From sequence record MH560358: a stretch of DNA of 64,000 bases; one strand, 5' to 3'. The DNA comes from Escherichia virus KFS-EC. The notes beneath the pieces were generated by a model. The model saw nothing but the letters and a program-made list of their open reading frames with translations. It was not told the origin of the DNA and made no database searches. Positions 5,422 to 51,696 of the stretch are shown here, one piece after another. A program made the position numbers and the translations under genes. How positions within the stretch are numbered: position 1 is the first letter of the stretch; each line of letters opens with the position of its first letter.

Positions 5422-5790
5422 TCACTTAACAAAGATTTTCTTTAATGCTTTCAGGATCGTTGCTTCCGGCGCTTCTTCCGGTGGAGGAAGCAATTCTACC
5501 ACTTCCTCTTCCAACTCGATATAGTCTACCAGATATTCTACATAGAATGCAAGTGCTTCCATGAAATTAGATGCTACATCCGATTCACCACACGCGCCTA
5601 CATGCATTGTATAAACATCACTGCGATCAAGTTTGTGGATGCTTCCAAGATAGTTTCGGTTATACCAGACTTCCCACACTTTCAACTTTCCGGTTTTGGT
5701 TGCTGTTTTATAATCGGTTTCGTAATGATGCAATTGACGTTGCAAATCATTGATAATAACACATTTTTCGTAATTGTTTTGAATTTCCAT
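5422..5790 (-). CDS. hypothetical protein with acidic Pro-rich C-terminus
   Basis: 122-aa ORF. Confidence 0.5.
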   Translation of the reverse strand: MEIQNNYEKCVIINDLQRQLHHYETDYKTATKTGKLKVWEVWYNRNYLGSIHKLDRSDVYTMHVGACGESDVASNFMEALAFYVEYLVDYIELEEEVVELLPPPEEAPEATILKALKKIFVK

Positions 5791-5800
5791 GATGTAATCC

Positions 5801-5992
5801 TCACTTATCGTTAAGAAGTTCTAAAACTTTCTGTCGTACTTTGTCAATATTAGTTGATTCAAAAACTGTACGGTATCCCCAGCTTTGACCGTATGAGCGG
5901 TTGCAATCTCCATATCCCCATTGTTCAACCTGATAGTATTCAAGGAATGGGTGCTGCCGAACTATGATACCATCGCGATTAAAAATTACCAT
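5801..5992 (-). CDS. hypothetical small protein
   Basis: 63-aa ORF. Confidence 0.4.
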   Translation of the reverse strand: MVIFNRDGIIVRQHPFLEYYQVEQWGYGDCNRSYGQSWGYRTVFESTNIDKVRQKVLELLNDK

Positions 5993-6015
5993 AATATAAT
6001 CCTCACGTCAACAAC

Positions 6016-6297
6016 TTATTTTCGGTTGTACTTCTGCCACTTTCGGTAATACTGCTTGTAAAATTGTTTTGCGTTTTCACCATCTTTACTATACATGTTA
6101 TCTACCATCAAGTCAATAAGACCTCCCGGTGTCTGGTAGTTCCCCGCTCGGATAAGTTCTTTAATTAAATTGTCCTGATGATCTTTGTATACTACGTTAA
6201 TGATGGTCTTTTCTGCTTTCTTCGTCCCGATCATCCGGTGATTAGCTTTCATCGCATCCCACCAATCTTTTGTGATCTTCATGTTATTGAATTGCAT
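6016..6297 (-). CDS. hypothetical protein
   Basis: 93-aa ORF. Confidence 0.45.
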   Translation of the reverse strand: MQFNNMKITKDWWDAMKANHRMIGTKKAEKTIINVVYKDHQDNLIKELIRAGNYQTPGGLIDLMVDNMYSKDGENAKQFYKQYYRKWQKYNRK

Positions 6298-6308
6298 AAT
6301 TTAACCTC

Positions 6309-7067
6309 TTACTTGCAAACGTATTGATCTACATCAATTGCGCCACCGAATGTAGGATGACGTTTTTCGAATCGAATAGTTCCGTCGTTTGGTTCGAAAA
6401 CGGAGTATTCATATAGATCTTTCTTGCCAACATTCTTATAAAACCCGCCTTTAGTCATAACGGTTTCTTGTACGTTTGCTTTGTGTACGTTGTATTCATC
6501 AATGTATACAAAATCAACCATCTTCCCATTTTTAATTGTTACTTTAAGATCTCCTGGTTGGTTTCCATATTTTGCATACAGTGGGGCTTCTTTAATTTTG
6601 GTGGAAATTCCATCTTTCATACTCCACTCATAACGAACGGTGCATTGATAGGTAAAAGTTTCGACCTTCGGTTCTTCTACAACTTTTGCTTCCTGTTTCG
6701 GTTGTTCTTCGTCAACCTTCGCAGAAGTCTCTGAATCGCTTTCCGACGCAGTTTCTTCTTTAGGTAATACATTCATCAAGTTTTGAATTTGAGCGTTATA
6801 TACAGCCTCCAGTGGCTGAATCTGCCCGATATTGATCATTGTATCACGAACAGTTTTATTCCAGTTGCGTTGCTCTTGTTTAAGCGACAGATCAATCTTA
6901 ACAGCCTTAACATATACTTCATGAAGTTTAGAATCCAGTGCGGAGATTGACTCATTGGCACAAATAAACTTCTCTGATTTGGTAGTGGCTTTAGCGCAAT
7001 CAAAGGACGCAGCATTAGCACCGAAAGCAGTAGCAGAAAGAACGATAGCAGCGATAATGTTTTTCAT
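6309..7067 (-). CDS. secreted two-domain protein; N-terminal domain resembles the LprI/DUF1311 lysozyme-inhibitor-like fold
   Basis: Signal peptide MKNIIAAIVLSATAFGANA; then FDCAKATTKSEKFICANESISALDSKLHEVY...QRNW (CxxAxT...E..IC...LD..L..Y...Q..W pattern), acidic linker, ~110-aa C-terminal domain; RBS GAGGAA. Confidence 0.6.
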   Translation of the reverse strand: MKNIIAAIVLSATAFGANAASFDCAKATTKSEKFICANESISALDSKLHEVYVKAVKIDLSLKQEQRNWNKTVRDTMINIGQIQPLEAVYNAQIQNLMNVLPKEETASESDSETSAKVDEEQPKQEAKVVEEPKVETFTYQCTVRYEWSMKDGISTKIKEAPLYAKYGNQPGDLKVTIKNGKMVDFVYIDEYNVHKANVQETVMTKGGFYKNVGKKDLYEYSVFEPNDGTIRFEKRHPTFGGAIDVDQYVCK

Positions 7068-7095
7068 AATATATTCCTCAATGTTTTGTCTTGAT

Positions 7096-7130
7096 GGGAG
7101 TATCTTACTACTCCCTTAATCCGGTGTCAA
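7096..7130 (-). promoter_or_regulatory. early sigma70-type promoter with stem-loop over -10 (PeSL-like)
   Basis: minus strand TTGACA-17 bp-TAAGAT; GGGAGTA/TACTCCC inverted repeat encloses the -10; upstream of 6309..7067. Confidence 0.55.
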
Positions 7131-7137
7131 CTACTTT

Positions 7138-7293
7138 TTAAATTTCTTCTACAGTAAAGTCTTCAATGTTGTTGTGCTCGGAGAACGTTGCCAGACCAGC
7201 ATTCCATGCATCATCCTCAGAGAAGAATACACCGTAACGTTCATATCCTTTAGCGCCTTCAAATTTAATCATTAATTTGTGAGTATGTTTCAT
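7138..7293 (-). CDS. hypothetical small protein (51 aa)
   Basis: ATG at 7293 preceded by GGAG RBS; longer track ORF (to 7356) runs through the promoter so the internal start is used. Confidence 0.45.
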   Translation of the reverse strand: MKHTHKLMIKFEGAKGYERYGVFFSEDDAWNAGLATFSEHNNIEDFTVEEI

Positions 7294-7324
7294 TTTGATT
7301 CTCCTTCGTTGTCTTGATGGGTTT

Positions 7325-7354
7325 AGTATAGGGGATCGCCGATCCCCTGTCAAC
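7325..7354 (-). promoter_or_regulatory. early sigma70-type promoter with palindromic spacer (PeSL-like)
   Basis: minus strand TTGACA + GGGGATCGGCGATCCCC (17-bp perfect palindrome) + TATACT. Confidence 0.6.
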
Positions 7355-7363
7355 ATCTATTTT

Positions 7364-7576
7364 TTAATTTTTACCCGCTCGTGCATTAATACGCATTTTC
7401 TGCATAGCCATGATCTGGCTTACTGCTTCTTCTTTACGTTCTTGCGTGATAACGTGACCAGATTCCGCAAACTCTCCCGCAACTTCTTCTACGATCTCGC
7501 GAACTTGAGAACGTCCAAAGATGCGGTTTCCTTCGTAGCTCATAAATTCAGTCACTACTTGCTCAATAGATTTCAT
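7364..7576 (-). CDS. hypothetical small protein (70 aa)
   Basis: ATG at 7576 with GGAG RBS; track ORF N-terminus overlaps promoter. Confidence 0.45.
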   Translation of the reverse strand: MKSIEQVVTEFMSYEGNRIFGRSQVREIVEEVAGEFAESGHVITQERKEEAVSQIMAMQKMRINARAGKN

Positions 7577-7595
7577 GTGATTCTCCTTTCGTTTG

Positions 7596-7634
7596 GTATG
7601 GGAGTATAATACTACTCCCATTTCTTTACGTCAA
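7596..7634 (-). promoter_or_regulatory. early sigma70-type promoter with stem-loop over -10 (PeSL-like)
   Basis: minus strand TTGACG-17-TATTAT with GGGAGTA..TACTCCC inverted repeat around -10. Confidence 0.55.
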
Positions 7635-7637
7635 CAA

Positions 7638-7799
7638 CTATTTTAAATTATTTTCGACCTTCACCCATTCCGCGTATTCTTGCGCGGCTACTTTCGGATT
7701 TAGTCCGTCTTCGTACATTGCATCAAGTAATTCTTTGTCGGTGGGCTTATACCCTAGATAAGCCTCCACCTGATTTTTCCAAATTTTATACCAGTTCAT
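7638..7799 (-). CDS. hypothetical small protein (53 aa)
   Basis: internal ATG at 7799 (MNWYKIW...) chosen because the upstream gene ends at 7804. Confidence 0.4.
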   Translation of the reverse strand: MNWYKIWKNQVEAYLGYKPTDKELLDAMYEDGLNPKVAAQEYAEWVKVENNLK

Positions 7800-7803
7800 A
7801 TTA

Positions 7804-8076
7804 TCACCAATCAAGAGCGCGTGTCTCTGCGTCTTCCCATGCTTGATCCATAACAGCCTTGAAAACATATTCTAGAGTATCATCTTTAGAGAATCCGAAG
7901 ACTTTAGACGGAATATCTTCGATTGCTACTCCCGCAACTTCTGCATTACGCGCTTGGCAATAATGCAACTCTAAGTTATCGAGATAGCGACCGCCTAATT
8001 TCTCCATATCATCCCAGCATTTCCAGTAACCTACTTTATTTGCAATTGCTAACACTTTGCTGTTTTCGTTGCTCAT
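7804..8076 (-). CDS. hypothetical protein (90 aa)
   Basis: ATG at 8076 downstream of promoter at 8107..8136. Confidence 0.45.
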   Translation of the reverse strand: MSNENSKVLAIANKVGYWKCWDDMEKLGGRYLDNLELHYCQARNAEVAGVAIEDIPSKVFGFSKDDTLEYVFKAVMDQAWEDAETRALDW

Positions 8077-8106
8077 CTTTGATTCTCCTTTTGTTTGGTA
8101 TGTGTG

Positions 8107-8136
8107 TATTATGCGAGGCTGGATTCGTGAAGTCAA
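8107..8136 (-). promoter_or_regulatory. early sigma70-type promoter
   Basis: minus strand TTGACT-18-ATAATA directly downstream of terminator hairpin. Confidence 0.5.
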
Positions 8137-8139
8137 CAA

Positions 8140-8176
8140 CTTTTTAAAATAAAAAAGCCGACCACAAGGATCGGCT
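8140..8176 (-). terminator. rho-independent terminator (minus strand)
   Basis: AGCCGA tccttgtgg TCGGCT hairpin followed on the minus strand by TTTTTTATTTT; after stop of 8187..8582. Confidence 0.6.
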
Positions 8177-8186
8177 TAATAATCAG

Positions 8187-8582
8187 TTACTTACTAAATT
8201 TCTTTTTGGCTTCGTCTACCGCATGAGATGCCAGTACCGCAGCCGCATGTGCACTTTTATCTGTGTTGCAGAGAACGCCCAGATAAACATCACGCCAAAG
8301 TTTAATCATCTCGTAGATCATATCAATATCATTTTCTTGTTTGTTGGCGATGCTATTCGTCGTTATCTGGTAAGGTAACGGCTTGATCTGTACTGGTTCC
8401 GCCATCGGGCTAATCGGTTTCGGATCAGTCATAATAGGTGCTGTTGTGGGTGGTGTTTTCCATACATCATTATTCCACGGTTTAATCGTTGTGTCGTAAA
8501 GTTTATAAGGATTTTTGTCTGGGTCAACCATCCATGCATGATGAGTACCCAAACCATTTGAAGTGATGCGTCGTTCAGTCAT
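8187..8582 (-). CDS. hypothetical protein, Pro-rich central region
   Basis: 131-aa ORF. Confidence 0.5.
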   Translation of the reverse strand: MTERRITSNGLGTHHAWMVDPDKNPYKLYDTTIKPWNNDVWKTPPTTAPIMTDPKPISPMAEPVQIKPLPYQITTNSIANKQENDIDMIYEMIKLWRDVYLGVLCNTDKSAHAAAVLASHAVDEAKKKFSK

Positions 8583-22393: not shown

Positions 22394-22957
22394 TCAAATA
22401 ACATTAAACACTGCAAATTCACCGTGATACTTATACGCATAGTCATTATATACTATTGCGGCGTCTATTTCTAGGTCAAATTGTCCTATATAGACTTTAT
22501 TTCCTTCATTGTCCCTTATCTGGGCGACCCATTTACCCGAACGACTATTATAATGCACTCCTTTAAAATTGCTAGTTTTAGTTTGGTTATTTCTTCTCAT
22601 ATTTTGGGTATTCTGTTTTTGTGTCGCCTCTCTTAAGTTTGGAGGGTCGTTGTTTTCTGGATTCCCGTCAATATGGTCAATGACAGGTGGGCAATACCCA
22701 TGCTCTAAGAAGAATACTATTCTATGCACAAGCTCAAAATATTGTTTTCCTTCAAAAGAAAACGAGACTTTTAGGTGTCCGGCTGTGACTTTAGATACCT
22801 TTACTATATCACCAACCTTATAAAACTGGCCTTCTTTCGTCGTTCGGCTTGCTTTGCTGTTTGTTTTATGAATCAATATACCACTTTCGTGTCTATATCT
22901 TCGACGTATTTCATCCTTTAGTTCATCGCTCCATTCTTTGGCTTTCCTTACCCTCAC
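22394..22957 (-). mobile_element. free-standing homing endonuclease gene, HNH nuclease plus AP2 DNA-binding domain
   Basis: 187 aa; HNH core IDHIDGNPENNDPPNLREATQKQN; AP2-like FKGVHYNSRSGKWVAQI...YIGQF; GTG start with GAGGG RBS; inserted between genes 56 and 61. Confidence 0.75.
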
Positions 22958-24944: not shown

Positions 24945-25580
24945 TCAAGCGAATGTAGAAAGCAAATGTTTTGTTTCTTTCAGTTGTCGTTCAAGATCTT
25001 TGCGTTTCTCTTTAAGTTGCATTTTAGCATTATTTCGCTGTTTTTCAACATCTTTATCAATACTCTTATTCCAGTTATCAATATCAGAATAAGTTGGCAT
25101 ACCCAATTCTAGACCTAATGCGGTTGGATACAAGGTAACAGTCCATAAACCGCTAATCTTCTTAAATAGGTCGGGGTGTAGTGTACTATCTACATCTTCC
25201 GGTGTCAACTCTTTTTCTTCTTTCAGTGGTGGGATCTCGTCATATGGTTCCAGTGCATTTACTTTAATGTCAGATACCTCATCAAAGAATCCGCGTACAT
25301 CCGCAGGAAATACACAAGCAATTTCCCAACCGTGATCACGCAGAGAAGTAATATTTTTCACTCCCCCACCATGTGTGATGATTGATGTGACATTGCCATC
25401 AAGGTCCACCGAATTTACGAGAAATGGCTTATCGTCTGTCAGATCATTATAAAACTGTGCTTCGGCTGTAGTCATCTCCAGAAACAGATCTCGGATCGGA
25501 CGACCATCAGGTGCGTTACCTTCCTTGAGAGTATAAAAGCGACTTACGATCCATTTTGGCGGTAAAGCATTAGCGATCAT
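24945..25580 (-). CDS. hypothetical protein with C-terminal coiled coil
   Basis: 211-aa ORF directly downstream of gene 41. Confidence 0.5.
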   Translation of the reverse strand: MIANALPPKWIVSRFYTLKEGNAPDGRPIRDLFLEMTTAEAQFYNDLTDDKPFLVNSVDLDGNVTSIITHGGGVKNITSLRDHGWEIACVFPADVRGFFDEVSDIKVNALEPYDEIPPLKEEKELTPEDVDSTLHPDLFKKISGLWTVTLYPTALGLELGMPTYSDIDNWNKSIDKDVEKQRNNAKMQLKEKRKDLERQLKETKHLLSTFA

Positions 25581-27398: not shown

Positions 27399-28148
27399 TT
27401 ATTCTATGTCAACAAATTTCCAATTTGGAAAGTCTGGACTCATACAACGACGCCGAACGGTTCCGCGCTCGTTTCCTAGTACCTTAGATACTTCCGATAC
27501 AGATTTATAAATCACACCATCAACAAATACAGCCTTTCGGTCTTTCCTGTTTTGGTTTTTGCTCTTTTCTCTTCTGGCTTCTACGTTATCCGAATCATTC
27601 CATTGTCTCTTTGCTGTCTCTCTGGAAGATATTGCCTTTTGTTCTTTAACAATATCTTTAACGAGTTGTTCTTGTCCTGTTATCTTCGCCCACACATTAA
27701 CAGACTGGATAGCATTAGCCTCACTCATTCCCCAGCGTTTGCCGGATATATTCTTACGACGCACGCGTAGAAATTCGTTAAAGACTTCTTCGCATTGGTG
27801 CATATAATCACGAAATCCATATTTCTTAGCCCATGCCTCTTTAATTGCATCAGACATATTTTCGGCAATACGTCTACGCATCCATGCATACTCCTTATTA
27901 TTGCGACCGTGACTGGTCATGCACATCATACGCGAAGCCATAATAAGACCCACATGTTTAGGATACATTTTAGCTAAAAGTAGATGTGCTGTAAAGTGTT
28001 CCTCTGGAGTCAATGGAACGAGATTTTCGTGGTCATCGGTTCCACCCATACAACGTGGTTTAACGTGATGGATCTCTACATATCCGGTCGGCTTCTCGCG
28101 GGTTCTTGCTCGTTCAATCAATTTTTCGTAATGTGCTTTGTAGTTCAT
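27399..28148 (-). mobile_element. free-standing HNH homing endonuclease gene
   Basis: 249 aa from ATG 28148 (GGAGGA RBS); HNH core YVEIHHVKPRCMGGTDDHENLVPLTPEEHFTAH; basic C-terminal DNA-binding tail; inserted between gene 40 position and uvsX. Confidence 0.75.
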
Positions 28149-28163
28149 GTGATCCTCCATATG

Positions 28164-28183
28164 AAAAAGGGGCATAACGCCCC
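28164..28183 (-). terminator. rho-independent terminator after uvsX
   Basis: minus strand GGGGCGUUAUGCCCC hairpin followed by UUUUU, 16 nt after uvsX stop. Confidence 0.55.
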
Positions 28184-43222: not shown

Positions 43223-43481
43223 AAATCGCCCTCAGTTCTTTATAGCCTCCAATGTGCTCGTTGTCAATGAATATCTGGGGGTATACAAACCGGAGGCTCT
43301 TTGAGTTTAGCCTCCCCGCCAGTTCTTCAATCATATCACGGTCGGGAATAATGTCAACCCCGACCTGCTTGAATACTGGTTTAAGTGTATACGGAATACC
43401 CAGATCATCCAGTAGCTTCATTGCACTAATACAACCATAACAATGATAAGCCTCTTTCGGTATACCGTATATCTCGATCAT
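43212..43481 (-). CDS. nrdH: glutaredoxin-like protein NrdH
   Basis: 89 aa; CYGC redox motif near N-terminus; adjacent to nrdG/nrdD. Confidence 0.7.
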   Translation of the reverse strand: MIEIYGIPKEAYHCYGCISAMKLLDDLGIPYTLKPVFKQVGVDIIPDRDMIEELAGRLNSKSLRFVYPQIFIDNEHIGGYKELRAIYDY

Positions 43482-43978
43482 TTCTCAGCCTTTAATCTTT
43501 CTAGTTCTTCTTCCAGTTCCTTGATCCGTTGGTCACGTTCAAAGTCACGCTGCAACTTAATGGCGAATACTCGTTTAAACTGATTGTAATCATCGATTTT
43601 AAACACTTCTTCTTCGCCATAGCGACGCACAGAAACTTCGTAGTTATTGAAGAATTGTTGCATCATTGCTTCGGATGATAGCTCTGCTGATACCACTTTA
43701 AAATATTGATCTTCTGTAGGCGAAAACCAATTACAAGCATAAAGATAAACCTTTTCATTGTCTGGACACTGGTAAGCCTTACCATCGATTTCAATCACAG
43801 AAACATATTCAGGTATACTAGATGAATCAATAGCTAAGACTTTAAACGCACGGTCCCCGATAAACTCGGAGATCACACGATTCGCATCACTGGTTGCAAA
43901 TGCTTTACGCGCTTGTTCGTTTTTCCACTGATAGGTCATACCAACAACAAACATATTACCAACCTCGCTCTTTACCAA
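43478..43978 (-). CDS. hypothetical protein, one copy of the WxxGKTYxWKD/IEIDG repeat module plus coiled-coil tail
   Basis: 166 aa; shares module with 43956..44780, 44793..45266 and 49663..50841. Confidence 0.55.
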   Translation of the reverse strand: MVKSEVGNMFVVGMTYQWKNEQARKAFATSDANRVISEFIGDRAFKVLAIDSSSIPEYVSVIEIDGKAYQCPDNEKVYLYACNWFSPTEDQYFKVVSAELSSEAMMQQFFNNYEVSVRRYGEEEVFKIDDYNQFKRVFAIKLQRDFERDQRIKELEEELERLKAEK

Positions 43979-44780
43979 TCAAAAATTCAACTTCACGACG
44001 TTTAATGTCTTCTTGAAGGTCTTTAATCTTCTGGCGATCTTGCATTATTTCGTCCATCTTGTCAAGTGCTGCGATGAAATCATCGAAACGTTCAAAGGTT
44101 TTACCTTCATTTGCTTCGCCAAATTTAACCATTGTCAGGCCGTAACGACTACTAAACAGACGTTTCAACTGTCCAACGATTTTAGAATCAGTGGTTATAA
44201 CTTCCAATTCTTCTACTTCACGAAAGAATTTTCTATCAGAATCAATAAACCAGCTAGTTCCTTTATGGTCTCTATCTTCGGTTGCGCTCATTAGAGTATG
44301 GTCTTTACCATCAATTTCAATTACATCAATTTGCCCACATGGACTAACATTTTTAACAGTAAAAGGTCTATAATTTATTGCTCGTGCAATAACATAATTA
44401 AGGTTAGATACGTTTTCAGCATAATGGCAGAAGTCGGTCATAGCATTCGCATCTTTCCAAGTATAAGTTTTACCAACTTCCCATTTCTGGGGAACTTCTT
44501 CAACTTCACGAAAGAATTTTCTATCGAATGGACTAAAGAAATATGTTGCAGTCCAAATGTCTTTTCCTGTAGCAGTTTTCGCCGTATGATAAACACCGTC
44601 TAGCTCTATTGCATTAATCCAACCGTTGCCATCAATCTCGATGATGGTAAATGGCTTGTCACCAATAGCTGCACTAATATCGCTGTTAAGTGGAGAAAGA
44701 ACACCTTCTCCGTTAGTAATAAACTCAGTTTTAGCGTTTTCGTCTTTCCAGGTGTAAGTTTTACCAATTTCCCATTTCAT
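43956..44780 (-). CDS. hypothetical protein, two tandem copies of the repeat module plus coiled-coil tail
   Basis: 274 aa; internal duplication (WEIGKTYTWKDENA...DRKFFREVEE and WEVGKTYTWKDANA...DRKFFREVEE). Confidence 0.55.
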   Translation of the reverse strand: MKWEIGKTYTWKDENAKTEFITNGEGVLSPLNSDISAAIGDKPFTIIEIDGNGWINAIELDGVYHTAKTATGKDIWTATYFFSPFDRKFFREVEEVPQKWEVGKTYTWKDANAMTDFCHYAENVSNLNYVIARAINYRPFTVKNVSPCGQIDVIEIDGKDHTLMSATEDRDHKGTSWFIDSDRKFFREVEELEVITTDSKIVGQLKRLFSSRYGLTMVKFGEANEGKTFERFDDFIAALDKMDEIMQDRQKIKDLQEDIKRREVEFLIGKERGW

Positions 44781-44792
44781 AATATATTCCCC

Positions 44793-45266
44793 TTAACCGA
44801 TTTTATCAAGTTCGTTTAATGCTTTCTCTGCTTCCTGTATAGCTTGCACCCTTTCCGGCATTTTGTCAAGAAAATCTTTCAACTCTTCAAAACTGGAGAT
44901 ATGACGCAAGGCGTTAGCACCGATAGCCGCATGTGATTTGCATTCAAAGCGGATTTTATAATTATCCATCGCCAACTTGAGAAGATCAATTAATTTAGAT
45001 TCTTCTGGAATAATAATTTCTTCAAATCTGCTACGGTCATGATCCAGAAACCAACAAGATAGACCTACATCGGTTGAACTCATATAAGTTCCATCATGAA
45101 GATAAACAGACCGCACGTATCCTTTTTTCGCATCAACCGACGCAACTTTAAACGGTAATCTCAGATATTTCAAATAATCAACATCATACCATTTAAAAAA
45201 TTGGTTTGCATCTTTTACATCTTTCCACGCATAGGTCTTACCAGCTTCCCATTCCATAATAATCAC
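44793..45266 (-). CDS. hypothetical protein, one copy of the repeat module
   Basis: 157 aa; MEWEAGKTYAWKD... same module family. Confidence 0.55.
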   Translation of the reverse strand: MIIMEWEAGKTYAWKDVKDANQFFKWYDVDYLKYLRLPFKVASVDAKKGYVRSVYLHDGTYMSSTDVGLSCWFLDHDRSRFEEIIIPEESKLIDLLKLAMDNYKIRFECKSHAAIGANALRHISSFEELKDFLDKMPERVQAIQEAEKALNELDKIG

Positions 45267-45267
45267 C

Positions 45268-45777
45268 TCAAATAATTTTCACTGGAATACTATTAACAAT
45301 CTTGTATTGTACTTGATTGTCAGACCCCCGCCACGGCTTCTTCGTTGGCATATCTTTAATATAACGCCCATCGATGAACACGTCAACTGATTCTACAATT
45401 TTTCTTTGCTCATCATTCAATTGGTCAAGGGTATAACCAGACCATAGCCAAATATCTTTATTTGGCATCCATGATTTTACTTCATCGATGATCCGCTGTA
45501 CACCCTTTAAATTGCGTTTATACAGTGGATCGCCACCTAAGAATGTTAGCCCCTGAATAAAATCAGGTCTAAGCAGATCCAGAATCAATCCCATTGTATC
45601 ATCGGTGAATGGTTCCCCGTTCTTAGGATTGAGTAGGCTAGCATTAAAGCAACCATCACATGCGTGTGAACATCCGGTAACGTAAAGGGAGACTCTCACT
45701 CCCTCACCGTTAACCATATCACAATCTTTAATATCGGCATAGCGTAGTTTGCCGTATGTATCAGAACTCATATTCAA
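45268..45777 (-). CDS. nrdG: anaerobic ribonucleotide reductase activating protein (radical SAM)
   Basis: 169 aa; radical-SAM cluster CSHACDGC; adjacent to nrdD. Confidence 0.85.
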   Translation of the reverse strand: MNMSSDTYGKLRYADIKDCDMVNGEGVRVSLYVTGCSHACDGCFNASLLNPKNGEPFTDDTMGLILDLLRPDFIQGLTFLGGDPLYKRNLKGVQRIIDEVKSWMPNKDIWLWSGYTLDQLNDEQRKIVESVDVFIDGRYIKDMPTKKPWRGSDNQVQYKIVNSIPVKII

Positions 45778-45913
45778 TTACCCCGAACTCGTTTACAATC
45801 TGCGCTTTATAGTAACCACCGCGAGATGCCAATAGATAAGCTGGGCTTAGGTATTCGTATTCACGGATTTCTACTTGTGCGTTTTCAGTTTCCCAAATCA
45901 GTAAAGTCCACAT
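45761..45913 (-). CDS. hypothetical small protein (50 aa)
   Basis: ATG 45913 with GGAG RBS downstream of promoter 45955..45984; track ORF N-terminus is read-through of the promoter. Confidence 0.35.
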   Translation of the reverse strand: MWTLLIWETENAQVEIREYEYLSPAYLLASRGGYYKAQIVNEFGVIEYEF

Positions 45914-45954
45914 ATTTGATTCTCCTGTAAAGTTGTATCTCGTCTTGATGTGTG

Positions 45955-45984
45955 TAGTATAGGGGATCTCGCGATCCCCGTCAA
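45955..45984 (-). promoter_or_regulatory. early sigma70-type promoter with palindromic spacer (PeSL-like)
   Basis: minus strand TTGACG + GGGATCGCGAGATCCCC + TATACT. Confidence 0.55.
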
Positions 45985-45988
45985 GCAT

Positions 45989-46555
45989 TTATTTAAATTT
46001 TTCGAGAGATTTCAACCACAGGCGGCCTGGTAGGTACTCTCCGGCAAACATGAAATTGTCATCTGGATAAGAACGCAGCATATTCAAAATAAACTTCCGG
46101 CACTCTTCGTAATCTTTACGTTTAAGATAAATCACATTCTCGCCAGTACCGATCACACCTTTGCTGTATCCATGCTCTTTACGCACAGACCATTGTACAG
46201 TATCCTTTTTAACCCGAATCACAACAGGTTCCCAATACCCAGCGCATCCGGCTACACCACACGAACAGGTGAGGAAGTATTGACCTTTTGCTTTGTTTTC
46301 CTCCCACCCGATATTAACCGGATGCCATTCGTGAAACAAGGCTAAAGCATCGTGTGTCTCTTCGATCTGTTTATTGTCAATTCTTACCGTAACCATCCAT
46401 ACAGGGATCTTATTTGTTGGTTCATCATCATAACATGAATCATCATAACATGAATCATCATCAATATGTTCTAATGTCATATCAACATTAATTGATTTTG
46501 CGTGTTCCAGGTGTCGTTGTGCTTTACGTTTACGGTTTAATGATTTCATAGTCAC
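45989..46555 (-). CDS. hypothetical protein (Cys-rich), contains in-frame 15-bp tandem duplication
   Basis: 188-aa ORF; DSCYDDSCYDD encoded by catcataacatgaat x2 at 46426..46455; true start may be internal. Confidence 0.45.
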   Translation of the reverse strand: MTMKSLNRKRKAQRHLEHAKSINVDMTLEHIDDDSCYDDSCYDDEPTNKIPVWMVTVRIDNKQIEETHDALALFHEWHPVNIGWEENKAKGQYFLTCSCGVAGCAGYWEPVVIRVKKDTVQWSVRKEHGYSKGVIGTGENVIYLKRKDYEECRKFILNMLRSYPDDNFMFAGEYLPGRLWLKSLEKFK

Positions 46556-46566
46556 CTCACATTATT

Positions 46567-47106
46567 TCAAAGATCGCGATATTGTACATTATGAAAATGA
46601 GAACTTGCATTACCAATATTGTAGATAACAAATTCTTCATCCGGCGCTTGCGCTACAAATTGAGTATGAGCAACCGCTACGACTTTAAAAATACGATCCG
46701 TGATCTTGTGCTTAATTTCTGCCCCTACTTCCATAGGAACATATTCATTTGTTTCTGTTTCAGTCGCAAAACAGCCATCTTCTTCATAAGCACGAACAAA
46801 TCGGTCGCAATCAGTACGCTTAACAAATTCAAGAGTATATAATTCTCGTGAATTGTCGGTATAGACCAATACAGAATTATTATGATAGCGAATCACATAC
46901 AGGTTATTATCATCGTCAATTACGCAAAAGCTACGGATTCCTTCGCCTTGACTCCAGCAGATATTAACCACCGTTCCTCTAATAAAAAAACTTTCCTTTA
47001 AATTAAAACTAGTCAATGTGCTAGCGTGCATTTTAACAACAACACCATCACCAATTTCCAGTTTACGAAGTTTAACTTCTTTGCTCAGTACACAAAACAT
47101 CATCAT
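46567..47106 (-). CDS. hypothetical protein
   Basis: ATG triplet at 47100-47106 with AGAGAGGA RBS downstream of promoter; track ORF extends to 47154. Confidence 0.5.
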   Translation of the reverse strand: MMMFCVLSKEVKLRKLEIGDGVVVKMHASTLTSFNLKESFFIRGTVVNICWSQGEGIRSFCVIDDDNNLYVIRYHNNSVLVYTDNSRELYTLEFVKRTDCDRFVRAYEEDGCFATETETNEYVPMEVGAEIKHKITDRIFKVVAVAHTQFVAQAPDEEFVIYNIGNASSHFHNVQYRDL

Positions 47107-47134
47107 ATTGTCCTCTCTTTGTTTCGATGTGAGC

Positions 47135-47162
47135 ATTATACATGAGCTAATCATGTTGTCAA
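47135..47162 (-). promoter_or_regulatory. early sigma70-type promoter
   Basis: minus strand TTGACA-16-TATAAT immediately after terminator hairpin. Confidence 0.55.
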
Positions 47163-47169
47163 CACCCCA

Positions 47170-47200
47170 AAACGAAAAAGCCGACCCTTTCGGATCGGCT
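47170..47200 (-). terminator. rho-independent terminator after nrdD
   Basis: minus strand AGCCGA..TCGGCU hairpin followed by UUUUUCGUUUU, 6 nt after nrdD stop. Confidence 0.6.
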
Positions 47201-47205
47201 AAAAA

Positions 47206-49068
47206 TTACATGTGCTTAACGCGGTTTACCATCTCGGAGTGTTTCCCGTGGTTAAATGGACGCAGATCAACAGATCCAAGATATCCACTAACGCGACGGA
47301 TAACATTCATCTTTTCCAGATTGTCATTTCCGCAATCAGGGCAAACAAAACCAGACTCGGTCGCTCTCATTTCCTTATTAGATCCGCATACATGACATAC
47401 ATCAGAAGGAGTATTAACACCGAAGTAGTGCAATTTATCCATTGCATAGTCTACTACAGTTTCAAGACCTTTCAGGTTGTTTTTCATGTCTGGGAACTCA
47501 ACATAAGAGATCATGCCACCGGACGCCAGCCAGTGATAATCTTTCTCAAAGTCGATTTTCTCAAATGGAGTGACTTTCCGGTCTACGTCAAGGTGGAATG
47601 AGTTGGTGTACCAGTCTTTATCGGTAGCACCCTTAACAATACCAAATTGCTCTCTGTCCAGTCGATTAAATCGATAGCAAAGGCTCTCGGCTGGCGTACC
47701 GTAAAGACTAAACCCAAGTCCGGTTTCATCCTTCCATTTTTCAGTATAATGACGCAAGATCTTAAGAATATGTTTACCGTATCGCTGCGCATCTTCCGAA
47801 TCAAACGGATGAACACCAAACAGGACGCTCAATACCTCATGTAAACCAATATATCCAATAGAGATACTAGCGCGACCATCTTTCAACACTTCCAAAATTT
47901 CATCGTTTTGATGAATACGGAAAAATGCACCTTCGGTATACAGTACAGGAGCAACATTGGCTTTAGCGCCTTTTAAAGCGTCTACGCGACTCATGAGCGC
48001 ATCAAAACAAATAGGCATACGATTAGCTAGCTCTTGTTCGAATAGCTCAATTCTGCGCATTACAGACGCTTTACCAGCACGACGCGCGGCAATAAGAGCA
48101 ATACGCGGAAGATTCAGAGTCACAACACCCAAGTTATTACGTCCGTCTAATACTTCTTCGCCTTTCTCATTATGCCACACACCCAGGAAGCTACGACAAC
48201 CCATCGGGCTAACCGGAACACTAGATCCGGTGATACTACGGTTATTCTTCGCAGAGATATAATCAGGGTAAAGACGCTTACTAGAACATTCCAATGCAAG
48301 TTGCTTAATGTCGTAGTTCGGATCTTCCGGTTTAAGGTTTAATCCTTCTTCTAAGAACATCACCAGCTTAGGAAACACCGGAGTGATACCATCTTTACCT
48401 AAACCTTTAGTTCGAACTTTCAGGATCGCTTTCTGAATCAGTTTTTCTTCCCAGCTAGTCCCCATACCAAATGTTAAAGTCACAAAAGGTGTTTGACCGT
48501 TGGTGGAGAACAAAGTGTTGATTTCATATTCCAACGCTTGATACCCGTCTAGCGTTTCTTTTTCTGTCTTCTCTTGTGCATAGAGAGTATCCGCTTTGAT
48601 TCCGTAGGTTTCGGCATCAGCAAGGTGTTTATGATATGTTTTCTCAACGTATGGCGCTAAAACCTGATCGATGTTTGCAATTGTGGTCCCGCCATATTGA
48701 TGACTTGCCACCTGTGCGATAATTTGAGCGGTTACAGCACAAGCAACGCCGATTGATTTCGGACTTTCGATTTGTGCGCTACCCAATTTAAAACCATTCT
48801 CTAACATGTCTTTGAGATTAACAAGACAGCAGTTAGTAAACGGCATAGCGGGTGCATAATCCATATCATGATAATGAATGTCACCGTCTACATGCGCTTT
48901 ATAGATGTGCTCAGGTAACACGGTTTTAGCAATCTGTTTAGACACAGCACCAGCAATCAGATCTCGACGTGTCGGGAATGTTCGCGCGTCTTTGTTCGCG
49001 TTCTCTTTGCTTACTTCGTTTTCTTTACCCGTTGCGATCTCTGTAATGTCTTTGATTAGTTTTTCCAT
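47206..49068 (-). CDS. nrdD: anaerobic ribonucleoside-triphosphate reductase
   Basis: 620 aa (T4 605); C-terminal glycyl-radical motif RVSGYLGS and zinc-ribbon CPDCG...C; uninterrupted (no intron). Confidence 0.92.
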   Translation of the reverse strand: MEKLIKDITEIATGKENEVSKENANKDARTFPTRRDLIAGAVSKQIAKTVLPEHIYKAHVDGDIHYHDMDYAPAMPFTNCCLVNLKDMLENGFKLGSAQIESPKSIGVACAVTAQIIAQVASHQYGGTTIANIDQVLAPYVEKTYHKHLADAETYGIKADTLYAQEKTEKETLDGYQALEYEINTLFSTNGQTPFVTLTFGMGTSWEEKLIQKAILKVRTKGLGKDGITPVFPKLVMFLEEGLNLKPEDPNYDIKQLALECSSKRLYPDYISAKNNRSITGSSVPVSPMGCRSFLGVWHNEKGEEVLDGRNNLGVVTLNLPRIALIAARRAGKASVMRRIELFEQELANRMPICFDALMSRVDALKGAKANVAPVLYTEGAFFRIHQNDEILEVLKDGRASISIGYIGLHEVLSVLFGVHPFDSEDAQRYGKHILKILRHYTEKWKDETGLGFSLYGTPAESLCYRFNRLDREQFGIVKGATDKDWYTNSFHLDVDRKVTPFEKIDFEKDYHWLASGGMISYVEFPDMKNNLKGLETVVDYAMDKLHYFGVNTPSDVCHVCGSNKEMRATESGFVCPDCGNDNLEKMNVIRRVSGYLGSVDLRPFNHGKHSEMVNRVKHM

Positions 49069-49112
49069 TGTATCACCTATGAAAAAGCGGGATTTCTCCC
49101 GCTCGTTGATAG

Positions 49113-49607
49113 TTATTTTACCAGTTCTGCTAATTCTTTTTCCGCCGCTTCCAGTTCAGCTTTCAGTTGTTTGATCTCTTGTCGCTTCTTATTAGCGGCT
49201 TCCTGCTTACTATTTCGGATAATCTGATCTAGATATGAATCCCACTCCTGAATATTTTTGATAATGTAACCGTCAACATTAATTGGTCGTAGATTCAGTA
49301 CAGCTTCCAGTTTAGTCGCAAAAACTTTAATTGCTGGGGTGAAGTATTCATATTCGTTATCTTCAAACCAATAACCTAGACTTGCATTCTCAATACGAAG
49401 ACGAAGTTTAAGATCAAGGTCTTTATCTTCGGTGTAAAGATCTTTCACCTGCCCCATCGAGCTAACAACAACTTTAAAACGAATTTTATCTACACCGCCA
49501 AAAACATCTTCAAGAATATCAGCAATTGAGCTATTAGCGCAAGATTGGTCGCTGAATGCGTCAAGATTTTCTTTAGTTACAGTATACCAAATATCTTGTT
49601 TCCACAT
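49113..49607 (-). CDS. hypothetical protein with C-terminal coiled coil
   Basis: 164-aa ORF downstream of promoter 49633..49666. Confidence 0.5.
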   Translation of the reverse strand: MWKQDIWYTVTKENLDAFSDQSCANSSIADILEDVFGGVDKIRFKVVVSSMGQVKDLYTEDKDLDLKLRLRIENASLGYWFEDNEYEYFTPAIKVFATKLEAVLNLRPINVDGYIIKNIQEWDSYLDQIIRNSKQEAANKKRQEIKQLKAELEAAEKELAELVK

Positions 49608-49632
49608 AATATAATCCTCTCGTTGTTAAGTT

Positions 49633-49666
49633 GGGAGTATTATAGCATACTCCCTTCGCATGTCAA
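49633..49666 (-). promoter_or_regulatory. early sigma70-type promoter with stem-loop over -10 (PeSL-like)
   Basis: minus strand TTGACA-16-TATAAT inside GGGAGTAT..ATACTCCC inverted repeat. Confidence 0.55.
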
Positions 49667-50841
49667 GCACTAACTTTTTTCTTTACTGCTTTCACCTTCT
49701 GGCGAATTGCTCGAATCTCTTCGATCTCTTTTTCAGTCTCTTTAACAATTTCTTTGCGATTCTGAATATCTGTATCTAGATTCTCATCGAGTTTAGGAAG
49801 CATGTCGATCAAGAACTTTTTAAAGTCTTTCAGGTTTCGGATAACAGCACCTTCACCCATTACCGCAACACCCACACCATCCGGCAGATCACCAAACAGC
49901 TTAACCAGTTCAGACAGATGATCATAGTCTTCTAATGCTTCCTCCGGTTCAGATGGCAGTTCAACAAAGTTATAACGTTCATCATTGCTGATCAAGTGAT
50001 ACCAGCAAAGCCCGAAAGATTTCGGTGTATATTCTACACCATCAATTTCAACCGCGTCAACACTTCCATAATCATCTACTTTAGTTACCTTAAATCCTTG
50101 TCCCAGCTTTTGAACAATTTCAACAACATGACTTGATACAGTTTCAGCGGTAAACCAATATGGCAAATTATGCTGATTTGGCTTGTAGCGTTCACCTACT
50201 TTAAATCTCTGACCATCCGCTTGCATAGCATGAAATTGTTGTTTCGTGATTTCCGCGAAGTATTCAAATTCGCTACCGTCAAACAAGCAATTCCATTGAC
50301 CACAAAAACGGTCCGCCTTGACGGTTTCACCTTTCGCGGTGATCATGGTAGCTGATCCGTGCAATTCTTCTTCAACTAAAAAGCCATATTCGACAAAATC
50401 AACAAGTTTCATAGCTTCTTTGTGATCTGGATCATGCTCTCCCCAGAATCTCTTAAATTCTTGCAAACCTTCTGGTGTAAACGAATAACATTTACCTTTT
50501 TCAAAGTAAGTCGGCATTGCATCCTCTTTCTTGTTCATCGCTTCGTATGCCTCTTTTGATATACGTTTAAAGTATTTGCGCTCATTGTGCATAATCATAG
50601 TAGACCAATAATAAACGATATCCTCAGCGGAATAAACTACATCTCCAGCTTCAATAGTAATAACATGACCGTGGTCATCTTTTTCTAATACTTTAAAGCC
50701 CTTTTCGACGATTTCAGCAACCCGAATATGACCACGGCGCGAAGCATCGGTCAGAATAATTGAATAGCGAGAAAAGTCTAGAAACTCATCTTTACCGCCT
50801 TCACGGAATGCATAGTAATGACCTTCAAAGAATTTAGCCAT
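49663..50841 (-). CDS. hypothetical protein with three copies of the repeat module and a coiled-coil tail
   Basis: 392 aa; modules related to those in 43478..45266; GAGGA RBS. Confidence 0.55.
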   Translation of the reverse strand: MAKFFEGHYYAFREGGKDEFLDFSRYSIILTDASRRGHIRVAEIVEKGFKVLEKDDHGHVITIEAGDVVYSAEDIVYYWSTMIMHNERKYFKRISKEAYEAMNKKEDAMPTYFEKGKCYSFTPEGLQEFKRFWGEHDPDHKEAMKLVDFVEYGFLVEEELHGSATMITAKGETVKADRFCGQWNCLFDGSEFEYFAEITKQQFHAMQADGQRFKVGERYKPNQHNLPYWFTAETVSSHVVEIVQKLGQGFKVTKVDDYGSVDAVEIDGVEYTPKSFGLCWYHLISNDERYNFVELPSEPEEALEDYDHLSELVKLFGDLPDGVGVAVMGEGAVIRNLKDFKKFLIDMLPKLDENLDTDIQNRKEIVKETEKEIEEIRAIRQKVKAVKKKVSA

Positions 50842-50866
50842 AATAGAATCCTCTCGTTGTTTATAT

Positions 50867-50901
50867 GGGAGTATCTTACTACTCCCATTTCATGCTGTCA
50901 A
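50867..50901 (-). promoter_or_regulatory. early sigma70-type promoter with stem-loop over -10 (PeSL-like)
   Basis: minus strand TTGACA-17-TAAGAT inside GGGAGTA..TACTCCC inverted repeat; near-identical to element at 7096..7130. Confidence 0.55.
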
Positions 50902-51402: not shown

Positions 51403-51696
51403 TTAACCATTAATCTTGTTTTTGACTACAAAGGATCGGAACTCATCAAAACCACCGATATAATCACCATTATAGAAAATCTGCGGCATGGTGGCAATAA
51501 CTTCTACCCCTGCGCGATCCTGAATATCGGCAATGATATAATCAATCTTTACCGGACGACCGTTTTCGTCCACACCATCATTAACCGGAATGTAGATGTA
51601 AGGGATCTTACGCGCTTCACAAAGGCGCTTTGCATTCTGGCAATACTTACAGTTGTAACCTTCAAAACCAAAAATTTCTACCATGTTATACCTCAA
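51403..51696 (-). CDS. nrdC: thioredoxin/glutaredoxin NrdC
   Basis: 97 aa; CKYCQNAKRL redox motif and TMPQ.F..G..IGGFD as in T4 NrdC. Confidence 0.8.
   Translation of the reverse strand: MRYNMVEIFGFEGYNCKYCQNAKRLCEARKIPYIYIPVNDGVDENGRPVKIDYIIADIQDRAGVEVIATMPQIFYNGDYIGGFDEFRSFVVKNKING

What the first reader, a model, noticed from the sequence alone, without database searches (positions are those of the whole stretch)
43478..50841. Repeat-module protein family (about seven module copies in four genes) flanking nrdH, nrdG and nrdD
Four genes (43478..43978, 43956..44780, 44793..45266 and 49663..50841) encode one, two, one and three copies of a ~90-aa module (W-E-x-G-K-T-Y-x-W-K-D ... IEIDG ... 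W-F-x-D-x-D-R-x-F), each followed by a charged coiled-coil tail. I do not recognise the module. Its expansion around the anaerobic nucleotide reduction genes, each copy with its own early promoter or coupling, looks like a diversifying accessory family.
Basis: seen in the sequence. Interest (0 to 1): 0.65.

Follow-up and report, generated by a model that had tools for sequence, protein, structure and literature searches.

The report
GoF-like barrel-module gene family in RB49-type phage
The repeated ~90-residue module is real, but it is the N-terminal small beta-barrel of the poorly understood phage T4 GoF/Frd.2 protein family, here multiplied into a recombination-prone gene cluster beside the anaerobic nucleotide-reductase genes of an RB49-like coliphage.

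Summary
The window is a Krischvirus (RB49/JSE-like T4-type coliphage). The repeat is real but was undercounted. A sixth, distant member, Dc2 (24945-25580), sits next to helicase gene 41.

New here:
- one to three modules per protein;
- a different, highly conserved tail (small segment plus amphipathic helix);
- cassette-like module swaps between near-identical orthologues;
- copy-number change. All 57 GenBank relatives have eight cluster genes; this window lost three by recombination at a 38-bp paralogue repeat and inside a PeSL promoter cassette.

T4 has no members beside its nrd genes, so the link to nrdDGH is positional. The likely role is a non-enzymatic, oligomeric early binding protein. 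Interest is moderate to low.

The parts
43478..43954 (-). Family gene 1 (158 aa from ATG 43954; the TTG at 43978 is unlikely to be the start). It has one module (43679-43954) and a tail (43481-43678). Its stop overlaps the nrdH start (ATGA).
   Evidence: leave-out E 9.5e-12; relatives annotate 477 bp.
43956..44780 (-). Family gene 2 (274 aa). It has module 1 (44493-44780), module 2 (44205-44489) and a tail (43959-44189).
   Evidence: A protein 100% identical over its full length is named Escherichia virus KFS-EC in the database.
44793..45257 (-). Family gene 3 (154 aa from ATG 45257). It has one module (44991-45257) and a tail (44796-44990). It is chimeric: the 5' UTR and first four codons come from the p051 paralogue and the body from p050.
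45232..45269 (-). Deletion junction 1. This 38-bp stretch matches the 5' ends of both RB49 p050 and p051. The 175-aa paralogue p051 is missing here.
49113..49607 (-). It has one divergent module (49329-49607) and a tail with a coiled coil (49116-49328).
   Evidence: (phrog_15067, phrog_3710).
49613..49666 (-). PeSL-type early promoter for gene 4. It reads TTGACA-16-TATAAT with an extended TG. An 8-bp stem (GGGAGTAT/ATACTCCC) embraces the -10 element, followed by a conserved leader and RBS.
49663..50841 (-). Family gene 5 (392 aa; 'frd.2' in RB49 and JSE). It has module 1 (50551-50841), module 2 (50239-50514), module 3 (49948-50211) and a tail (49666-49917).
   Evidence: (phrog_8944, E 7e-213; phrog_622, three stretches).
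50847..50901 (-). PeSL-type early promoter for gene 5 (TTGACA-17-TAAGAT, 9-bp stem). It is also deletion junction 2 (50857-50901). Its 5' part matches RB49 upstream of p060 and its 3' part matches RB49 upstream of frd.2. Paralogues p059 and p060 are missing.
24945..25580 (-). Distant sixth family member (211 aa; 'Dc2' in RB49). It has one module (about 25269-25556), a long linker and a coiled-coil tail. It lies immediately downstream of helicase gene 41.
   Evidence: (E 5.4e-5 with a profile that excluded it).
45268..45777 (-). nrdG (context only, not part of the family). Its stop lies 10 nt upstream of family gene 3.
47206..49068 (-). nrdD (context only, not part of the family). It is intact here and is followed by a terminator-like hairpin at 47179-47200.

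Best explanation
The region is a lineage-specific expansion of the GoF/Frd.2 superfamily of T4-type phage proteins, in a Krischvirus.

Architecture. Each protein has one to three copies of an acidic ~90-residue small beta-barrel. The barrel has five strands with two helices inserted between strands 1 and 2, and is FeoA/SH3-like (called 'LSm-like' in the 2025 T4 paper). Each protein also has a conserved short helix/strand segment and a terminal amphipathic helix.

Expression (inferred). The genes are probably made early. Two have their own sigma-70 PeSL promoter cassettes. Three are packed into the nrdG-nrdH transcription unit.

Evolution (shown). The cluster grows, shrinks and reshuffles by homologous recombination between the repeated 5' ends of the modules and between PeSL cassettes. 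This window has lost three of the usual eight cluster genes in that way. In relatives, module 2 of the 274-aa protein is swapped or deleted while the tail stays almost invariant.

Mechanism (inferred, not shown). These are non-enzymatic binding proteins. The constant tail probably oligomerises the protein, and possibly docks it on a conserved partner. That would present several variable barrels that bind a macromolecule during host takeover.

My estimates:
- about 0.7 that they are non-catalytic binding or adaptor proteins;
- within that, about 0.4 that the barrels bind proteins and about 0.25-0.3 that they act on mRNA as mutant GoF(D25Y) does.

Placement beside nrdH, nrdG and nrdD reflects a hyperplastic interval, not a role in nucleotide reduction.
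For: Identity of the genome: 96-98% nucleotide identity to JSE, RB49 and Sf20.

Homology to GoF:
- A window-only module HMM hits the T4 GoF N-terminal domain at 31 bits over its whole length.
- The same profile finds a GoF orthologue at E 2e-4 in 1.84 billion representatives.
- hhalign of the window-only profile against T4 GoF gives 96.2%, E 2e-9, 90 columns; against Frd.2 it gives 77.6%.
- PHROGs annotated as goF are hit.

Fold:
- The AlphaFold2 module model has pLDDT 92.4 and pTM 0.83.
- Foldseek against PDB lists the same protein set, weakly.
- These are the same neighbours reported for the GoF N-terminal domain (PMC12152347).
- BFVD gives 90 hits at E <= 1e-3; those listed are overwhelmingly from T4-type phages, including an annotated GoF (TM 0.72).

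Non-enzymatic scaffold:
- The invariant residues are aromatic (Y9, F20, F44, F90), consistent with core positions.
- There are no Pfam, NCBIfam or PADLOC domain hits.

Constant tail, variable modules: among orthologues the tail is 88-100% identical. Module 1 is 57-99% identical among full-length orthologues. Module 2 is 87-97% identical, 36-42% identical, or absent.

Recombination: junction alignments. PeSL biology comes from PMC2839356.

Dispensability: three paralogues are deleted here, yet they are present in all 57 GenBank relatives. [quoted passage not shown]

No RNR link.
Against: No function has been shown for any wild-type member. In the reporter assay wild-type GoF and MotB.1 had little effect (PMC12152347).

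Oligomerisation through the tail is inferred only from amphipathic, heptad-like sequence and from the reported GoF and MotB.1 dimers. The tail is modelled at low confidence. It shows no detectable similarity to the GoF or Frd.2 C-terminal parts.

Early expression rests on consensus promoter matches only.

Among close relatives the family genes are only slightly more variable than core genes: 92-100% against about 99%. No positive selection has been demonstrated.
Confidence: 0.75

Rival explanations
1. The modules are Hfq/LSm-like RNA-binding domains. The proteins would be phage RNA chaperones or mRNA stabilisers, and the tandem modules plus coiled coil would mimic an LSm ring.
For: GoF(D25Y) raises gene 41 mRNA stability post-transcriptionally, and the T4 paper places Hfq among the structural neighbours (PMC12152347). 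The window modules are homologous to the GoF N-terminal domain. One member (Dc2) is encoded directly downstream of gene 41.
Confidence: 0.25
2. They are host-takeover or counter-defence proteins. Their variable barrels would bind host proteins, and module number and identity would be selected by the host strain.
For: - They sit in a hyperplastic interval with PeSL cassettes.
- Copy number changes and modules are swapped while the tail stays constant.
- Conservation is confined to a few aromatic residues.
- The nearest folds (FeoA, DtxR SH3-like, Mind bomb repeat, Tudor) are largely domains that bind other proteins or peptides; that functional reading is from general knowledge, while the matches themselves are.
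- The family is essentially restricted to T4-type phages.
Against: There is no hit to any known anti-defence or defence family; the PADLOC matches are insignificant. No target is known. All 57 GenBank Krischvirus records keep the same eight genes, so turnover is slow at that scale. Identity among close relatives is 92-100%.
Confidence: 0.35
3. They are accessory factors of the anaerobic ribonucleotide reductase. FeoA-like domains might, for example, help iron or Fe-S supply to NrdG, which would explain their position around nrdH, nrdG and nrdD.
For: Position: three genes lie between nrdG and nrdH and two lie just upstream of nrdD, and several appear co-transcribed with the nrd genes. The best structural neighbours are FeoA and iron- or manganese-regulator SH3-like domains.
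Against: - T4 has nrdH, nrdG and nrdD with no member in that region. Its members sit at the 39-motB and frd-32 loci.
- Serratia phage PS2 has two members between gene 49 and nrdH, with no nrdD or nrdG annotated there.
- A sixth member lies by gene 41.
- No conserved His or Cys metal ligands are seen. The T4 paper notes that GoF also lacks them.
- Three paralogues are deleted here while the nrd genes are intact.
Confidence: 0.05
4. The genes are functionless passengers: ORFan cargo of PeSL cassettes and duplication debris.
For: T4 homologues are dispensable in the laboratory. Three copies are deleted in this genome.
Against: - The reading frames are intact in all relatives examined.
- The tail is nearly invariant over orthologues whose overall identity falls to 65%.
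- The module folds confidently.
- GoF is estimated at about 20,000 copies per cell.
- The family persists across many T4-type phage genera.
Confidence: 0.05

Closest known systems
T4 GoF (ComC-alpha), 141 aa, 'mRNA metabolism modulator'
   Same: The N-terminal ~90-residue domain is homologous: hhalign 96.2% over 90 columns, HMM 31-38 bits. It is also acidic, comes from a T4-type phage, and has the same predicted barrel with the same FeoA/DtxR structural neighbours.
   Different: GoF has one module and a short C-terminal part that the window tail profile does not match. It sits at the 39-motB locus, which carries no member in RB49. The window proteins have one to three modules and a coiled-coil tail. 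No rho-suppressor or mRNA phenotype is known for them.
T4 Frd.2 (Pfam PF03197 FRD2)
   Same: There is a weaker but full-length profile match to the N-terminal domain: hhalign 77.6%, E 2e-5; HMM 14-16 bits. RB49 and JSE name the 392-aa gene 'frd.2'.
   Different: No window protein hits PF03197, whereas T4 Frd.2 does at E 5e-39. The window gene is not at the frd-32 locus and is three times longer, so the 'frd.2' label is a family label and not orthology.
FeoA and the C-terminal SH3-like domains of DtxR/IdeR/SloR/ScaR metalloregulators
   Different: Sequence identity is about 10% and there is no sequence-level match. Foldseek E-values are not significant. No metal-ligand residues are conserved. 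The module carries extra helices.
Hfq / LSm proteins
   Same: Both are small, bent, five-stranded beta-sheet folds. This is the analogy used in PMC12152347.
PeSL (promoter-early stem-loop) cassettes of RB49 and phi1
   Same: Upstream of two family genes there is a consensus sigma-70 promoter with an adjacent or overlapping stem-loop, repeated nearly verbatim. One is the crossover site of a deletion, as the PeSL shuffling model proposes (PMC2839356).
   Different: Here the stem embraces the -10 element rather than lying beside the promoter. The second deletion used coding-sequence homology between paralogues, not a PeSL.

Membership tests
GoF/Frd.2/MotB.1 'LSm-like fold' family of T4-type phages (PMC12152347) | Sequence-profile similarity of the module to the GoF N-terminal domain | tested here: met
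   Window-only HMM against T4 GoF: 31.4 bits over profile positions 3-90. The same profile finds a GoF orthologue (P0116) at E 2e-4 in 1.84e9 proteins. hhalign gives 96.2%, E 2.2e-9.
GoF/Frd.2/MotB.1 'LSm-like fold' family of T4-type phages (PMC12152347) | Similarity to the other two founding members (Frd.2, MotB.1) | tested here: inconclusive
   Frd.2: hhalign 77.6%, E 1.9e-5, 80 columns; HMM 14 bits. MotB.1: hhalign 5%, with only a 16-column patch; HMM 6.8 bits.
GoF/Frd.2/MotB.1 'LSm-like fold' family of T4-type phages (PMC12152347) | Predicted bent five-stranded antiparallel beta-sheet whose nearest solved neighbours are FeoA/DtxR-type SH3-like domains | tested here: met
GoF/Frd.2/MotB.1 'LSm-like fold' family of T4-type phages (PMC12152347) | Architecture: one N-terminal barrel, a flexible acidic linker and a short GoF/Frd.2-type C-terminal part | tested here: not met
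   The window proteins have one, two or three barrels. The tail profile does not match the GoF or Frd.2 C-termini (E 0.72 and 4.6).
GoF/Frd.2/MotB.1 'LSm-like fold' family of T4-type phages (PMC12152347) | Early, abundant, non-essential phage protein | tested here: inconclusive
   Consensus sigma-70 promoters lie upstream of two genes, and the others are packed with nrdG and nrdH. Three paralogues are naturally deleted in this genome. No expression data exist.
GoF/Frd.2/MotB.1 'LSm-like fold' family of T4-type phages (PMC12152347) | Effect on mRNA level or stability (shown only for the mutant GoF D25Y) | not testable with these tools
   This needs reporter or RNA half-life assays.
Hfq/LSm superfamily | Structural match to Hfq or Sm proteins | tested here: not met
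Pfam PF03197 (FRD2) | Score above the gathering threshold | tested here: not met
   None of the window proteins hits it even at E <= 1. T4 Frd.2 scores 133 bits.
FeoA / SH3-like metalloregulator domains | Sequence membership, or a strong fold match with conserved functional residues | tested here: not met
PeSL regulatory cassettes (PMC2839356) | Repeated intergenic unit combining a sigma-70 consensus promoter with a stable stem-loop, used as a recombination site | tested here: met
   There are two near-identical units. Their stems fold at -14 kcal/mol, z -2.5 and -2.9. The deletion crossover lies inside one of them.

The most novel reading that the evidence does not exclude
The family could be a specificity-switching system. 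In that reading a nearly invariant oligomerising tail acts as a chassis. Interchangeable SH3-like barrels (one to three per chain, many alleles) are swapped, duplicated or dropped by recombination at repeated module starts and PeSL cassettes. This would retune which host or phage macromolecules are bound, for example in counter-defence or control of RNA decay, between otherwise near-identical phages.
Probability: 0.15. Interest if true: 0.6.

Novelty: new variant of a known kind. Interest (0 to 1): 0.35.

Why it matters
GoF has been a genetic puzzle since the 1970s, and its family was recognised only in 2025, from three single-domain T4 proteins.

The RB49-type phages show the same barrel in a much richer setting:
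- nine genes and twelve modules in RB49;
- tandem modules within one protein;
- a shared coiled-coil tail;
- natural module swaps and natural deletions.

That gives ready-made comparisons for finding what the barrel binds. Examples are this three-gene-deletion genome against its 57 relatives, and allele A, allele B and no-module-2 versions of one protein.

The analysis also corrects database labels. 'frd.2' and 'goF mRNA metabolism modulator' describe family resemblance, not orthology or a demonstrated function. It also removes a tempting but unsupported link to anaerobic nucleotide reduction.

Tried and rejected
Searches that found nothing useful:
- Pfam, NCBIfam and PADLOC scans of all six proteins gave nothing significant.
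- PDB sequence-profile searches with the module profile (best E 0.28) and the tail profile (best E 0.013, mostly coiled-coil or designed helical proteins) gave nothing usable.
- The word-indexed homologue search with the module alignment returned only 9 proteins. The exhaustive HMMER search was needed.
- The afdb50 fold library was unavailable, so cellular structural relatives were not surveyed.

Matches set aside:
- About 13 large bacterial repeat proteins matched only part of the profile, typically positions ~30-63 and in several stretches each. I treated them as spurious beta-hairpin repeats. I did not check them individually.

Other dead ends:
- An exact-protein look-up of the chimeric 154/157-aa protein found no public contig, so the source genome of the deletions was not identified.
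- An extra weak member at 46567-47154 (E 0.12-1.4) was rejected as not significant.
- Heptad scoring of the tails was only moderately convincing.
- No dN/dS test was possible because too few substitutions separate the close relatives.

Full report
**What the window is.** The finding region is 96-98% identical in nucleotides to Escherichia phages JSE, RB49, kaaroe and Shigella phage Sf20, all Krischvirus, Straboviridae. All genes in the region read on the minus strand. In transcription order they are gene 49 (endonuclease VII), a 392-aa gene, a 164-aa gene and nrdD. Then come three small ORFs, nrdG, a 154-aa gene, a 274-aa gene, a 158-aa gene and nrdH. Downstream lie a 52-aa ORF, a 55.2-like gene, a DEAD-like helicase gene and gene 55.

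**Check of the observation.** The four named genes do share a ~90-residue module in 1, 2, 1 and 3 copies.
- The repeat is far beyond chance. Profiles built without a given gene still recover it among 1036 six-frame ORFs at E 9.5e-12, 3e-22, 1.2e-7 and 1.5e-9. The best unrelated ORF scores E >= 0.06.
- Independent PHROG profiles hit the same stretches.
Its module is divergent (leave-out E 0.025), but its tail is clearly homologous and phrog_3710 hits it at 2e-5.
- A sixth, distant member lies at 24945-25580, next to helicase gene 41. It was found at E 5e-5 by a profile that excluded it and is named Dc2 in RB49.
- The window therefore holds six genes with nine modules, eight of them in the cluster.
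- The start codons of two genes are better placed at ATG 43954 and ATG 45257.
- All six proteins share a tail that is more than a coiled coil. A conserved ~35-residue segment comes first, followed by a terminal amphipathic helix.

**What the module is.**
- A profile made only from the window copies matches the N-terminal domain of T4 GoF (ComC-alpha) end to end at 31 bits.
- In an exhaustive HMMER search of 1.84 billion representative proteins it gives only 61 hits at E <= 1e-3. About 48 are small proteins with the module at the N-terminus. They include a GoF orthologue at E 2e-4.
- The few named cluster members checked are from T4-type phages of Providencia and Serratia.
- hhalign of the window-only profile gives 96.2% against T4 GoF, 77.6% against Frd.2 and 5% against MotB.1.
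- No Pfam, NCBIfam or PADLOC family is hit. T4 Frd.2 itself hits PF03197, but the window proteins do not.

**Fold.**
- AlphaFold2 on a 47-sequence module alignment gives pLDDT 92.4 and pTM 0.83. It predicts five strands, two helices between strands 1 and 2, and short helices near the C-terminus.
- The 274-aa model shows two such barrels (pLDDT 82-89) and a poorly determined helical tail (pLDDT 45-67).
- Foldseek against PDB lists the same set with no significant E-value. Hfq does not appear in either list.
- Foldseek against predicted viral structures gives 90 hits at E <= 1e-3, overwhelmingly from T4-type phages of many host genera. They include an annotated GoF (TM 0.72) and Dc2.
- This reproduces what Kim et al. 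[quoted passage not shown] They called the fold 'LSm-like', and FeoA-type SH3 domains were its closest solved relatives. That paper does not mention RB49, tandem modules or coiled coils.

**What differs from the T4 proteins.**
- The window proteins have one to three barrels. Their tail has no detectable similarity to the GoF or Frd.2 C-terminal parts or to any solved structure.
- Across the wider family I saw at least three C-terminal types and one-, two- and three-module forms.
- A six-frame scan of the whole RB49 genome finds nine genes with twelve modules. Eight genes lie in the nrdH-gene 49 interval and the ninth is Dc2. None lies at the loci where T4 keeps goF or frd.2.
- The RefSeq labels 'frd.2' and 'goF mRNA metabolism modulator' therefore denote family resemblance, not orthology.

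**Dynamics.** RB49, JSE, kaaroe and Sf20 have eight cluster genes. The window lacks the equivalents of p051, p059 and p060.
- Both deletions have homologous junctions.
- At 45232-45269 the sequence follows RB49 upstream of p051 through the first four codons (ATGGAATGGGAAG). It then continues as p050, making a chimeric gene.
- At 50857-50901 the sequence follows RB49 upstream of p060 into the promoter and the 5' arm of a stem. It then continues as the promoter of the 392-aa gene.
- All 57 GenBank Krischvirus records carry both deleted segments. A metagenomic contig encoding the identical 274-aa protein also has the 175-aa gene. The deletions are therefore peculiar to this genome.
- Among orthologues of the 274-aa protein the tail is 88-100% identical. 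Module 1 is 57-99% identical among full-length orthologues. Module 2 is 87-97% identical, only 36-42% identical (a different allele), or absent.
- Among the closest relatives the family genes are 92-100% identical, against about 99% for NrdD and NrdG.

**Regulation.**
- The 392-aa and 164-aa genes are each preceded by a near-identical unit. It holds a consensus or near-consensus sigma-70 promoter, a GGGAGTA/TACTCCC stem around the -10 element, and a conserved leader with ribosome-binding site.
- These fit the promoter-early stem-loop (PeSL) cassettes of RB49 and phi1, which were shown to act as promoters and terminators and to mediate modular shuffling (PMC2839356).
- The three genes downstream of nrdG are separated by 1-12 nt, and the last overlaps nrdH (ATGA). 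They are probably co-transcribed with nrdG and nrdH. This is inferred.

**Relation to the nrd genes.**
- T4 has nrdH, nrdG and nrdD with no family member in the whole 55-nrdC region, and its nrdD abuts gene 49.
- Serratia phage PS2 has two members between gene 49 and nrdH, with no nrdD or nrdG annotated there.
- The association is therefore with a plastic genomic interval, not with anaerobic nucleotide reduction.

**How it most likely works.**
Shown:
- homology to the GoF N-terminal domain;
- a confident barrel prediction;
- acidic modules, pI 4.4-6.2;
- invariance limited to aromatic residues;
- a constant tail with variable modules;
- recombination-driven copy change.

From the literature:
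- GoF is abundant early and dispensable in the laboratory.
- GoF and MotB.1 migrate partly as apparent dimers on non-reducing SDS-PAGE.
- Only the mutant D25Y stabilises mRNA.

Inferred: these are non-catalytic binding proteins. The tail probably oligomerises them, and the barrels bind a macromolecule during takeover.

I give about 0.7 to this general mechanism. Within it I give about 0.4 to protein targets and 0.25-0.3 to RNA. The RNA reading is weakened by the acidity of the modules, the lack of conserved basic residues, the absence of Hfq among structural neighbours, and the weak effect of wild-type GoF.

**Novelty and verdict.** The module belongs to a family that is known but functionally unresolved. 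The genes themselves have been in GenBank since RB49 was sequenced. Four features appear undescribed: the tandem-module architecture, the shared coiled-coil tail, the size of the Krischvirus expansion, and the documented module swaps and deletions. I rate it a new variant of a known kind, of moderate to low interest (0.35). If module exchange proves to be an adaptive specificity switch, the interest would be higher (probability about 0.15).

Noticed in passing
window 45232-45269 and 50857-50901: This genome lacks three family genes (RB49 p051, p059 and p060) that are present in all 57 GenBank Krischvirus records. Both deletions have homologous-recombination junctions. The exact chimeric protein is not in the public protein collection.
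   Followed up: yes
window 24945-25580: The distant family member Dc2 is encoded immediately downstream of helicase gene 41. In T4, gene 41 mRNA is the transcript whose level the GoF(D25Y) mutant raises. This may be coincidence.
   Followed up: partly
window 51403-51696 (nrdC): The thioredoxin NrdC is 97.9% identical to RB49, but only 31.8% matches were found in the (partly truncated) loci fetched for JSE, kaaroe, Sf20 and a metagenomic contig. This may be an allelic replacement, or the match may be to nrdH instead.
   Followed up: no
window 45989-46555 and 46567-47103: The 188-aa ORF between nrdD and nrdG is about 96% identical to JSE but only about 48% to RB49, kaaroe and Sf20. The neighbouring 178-aa ORF shows the reverse pattern: 71% in JSE and 98-100% elsewhere. 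These are further mosaic replacements in the same interval.
   Followed up: no
window 22394-22957 and 27399-28175: Two putative homing-endonuclease genes lie at positions where RB49 annotates none. One has HNH_3 plus AP2 domains and sits just downstream of primase gene 61. The other has an I-TevI-type DNA-binding domain and sits after the gp40-like gene.
   Followed up: partly
L005 (JSE) 5744-8366 versus window 47206-49068: JSE nrdD is split into two ORFs by a homing-endonuclease gene. The window's nrdD is intact at 620 aa.
   Followed up: no
window 47135-47200: A strong terminator-like hairpin (9-bp stem, T-run) lies directly after nrdD. It is followed at once by a perfect 12/12 sigma-70 promoter for the next ORF, giving another promoter and stem-loop unit.
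   Followed up: no
window 45761-45988: The DUF7170 ORF overlapping the nrdG start is open for 75 codons here. It is annotated as 50 codons in RB49 and JSE, and only residues 26-75 match the Pfam model.
   Followed up: no
proteins P0078, P0081, P0094 and others: About 13 very large bacterial repeat proteins match part of the module profile, typically positions ~30-63 (the strand-turn-strand 'FxV..D..G.V..I' part), in several stretches each. They are probably convergent beta-hairpin repeats, but I did not examine them.
   Followed up: no
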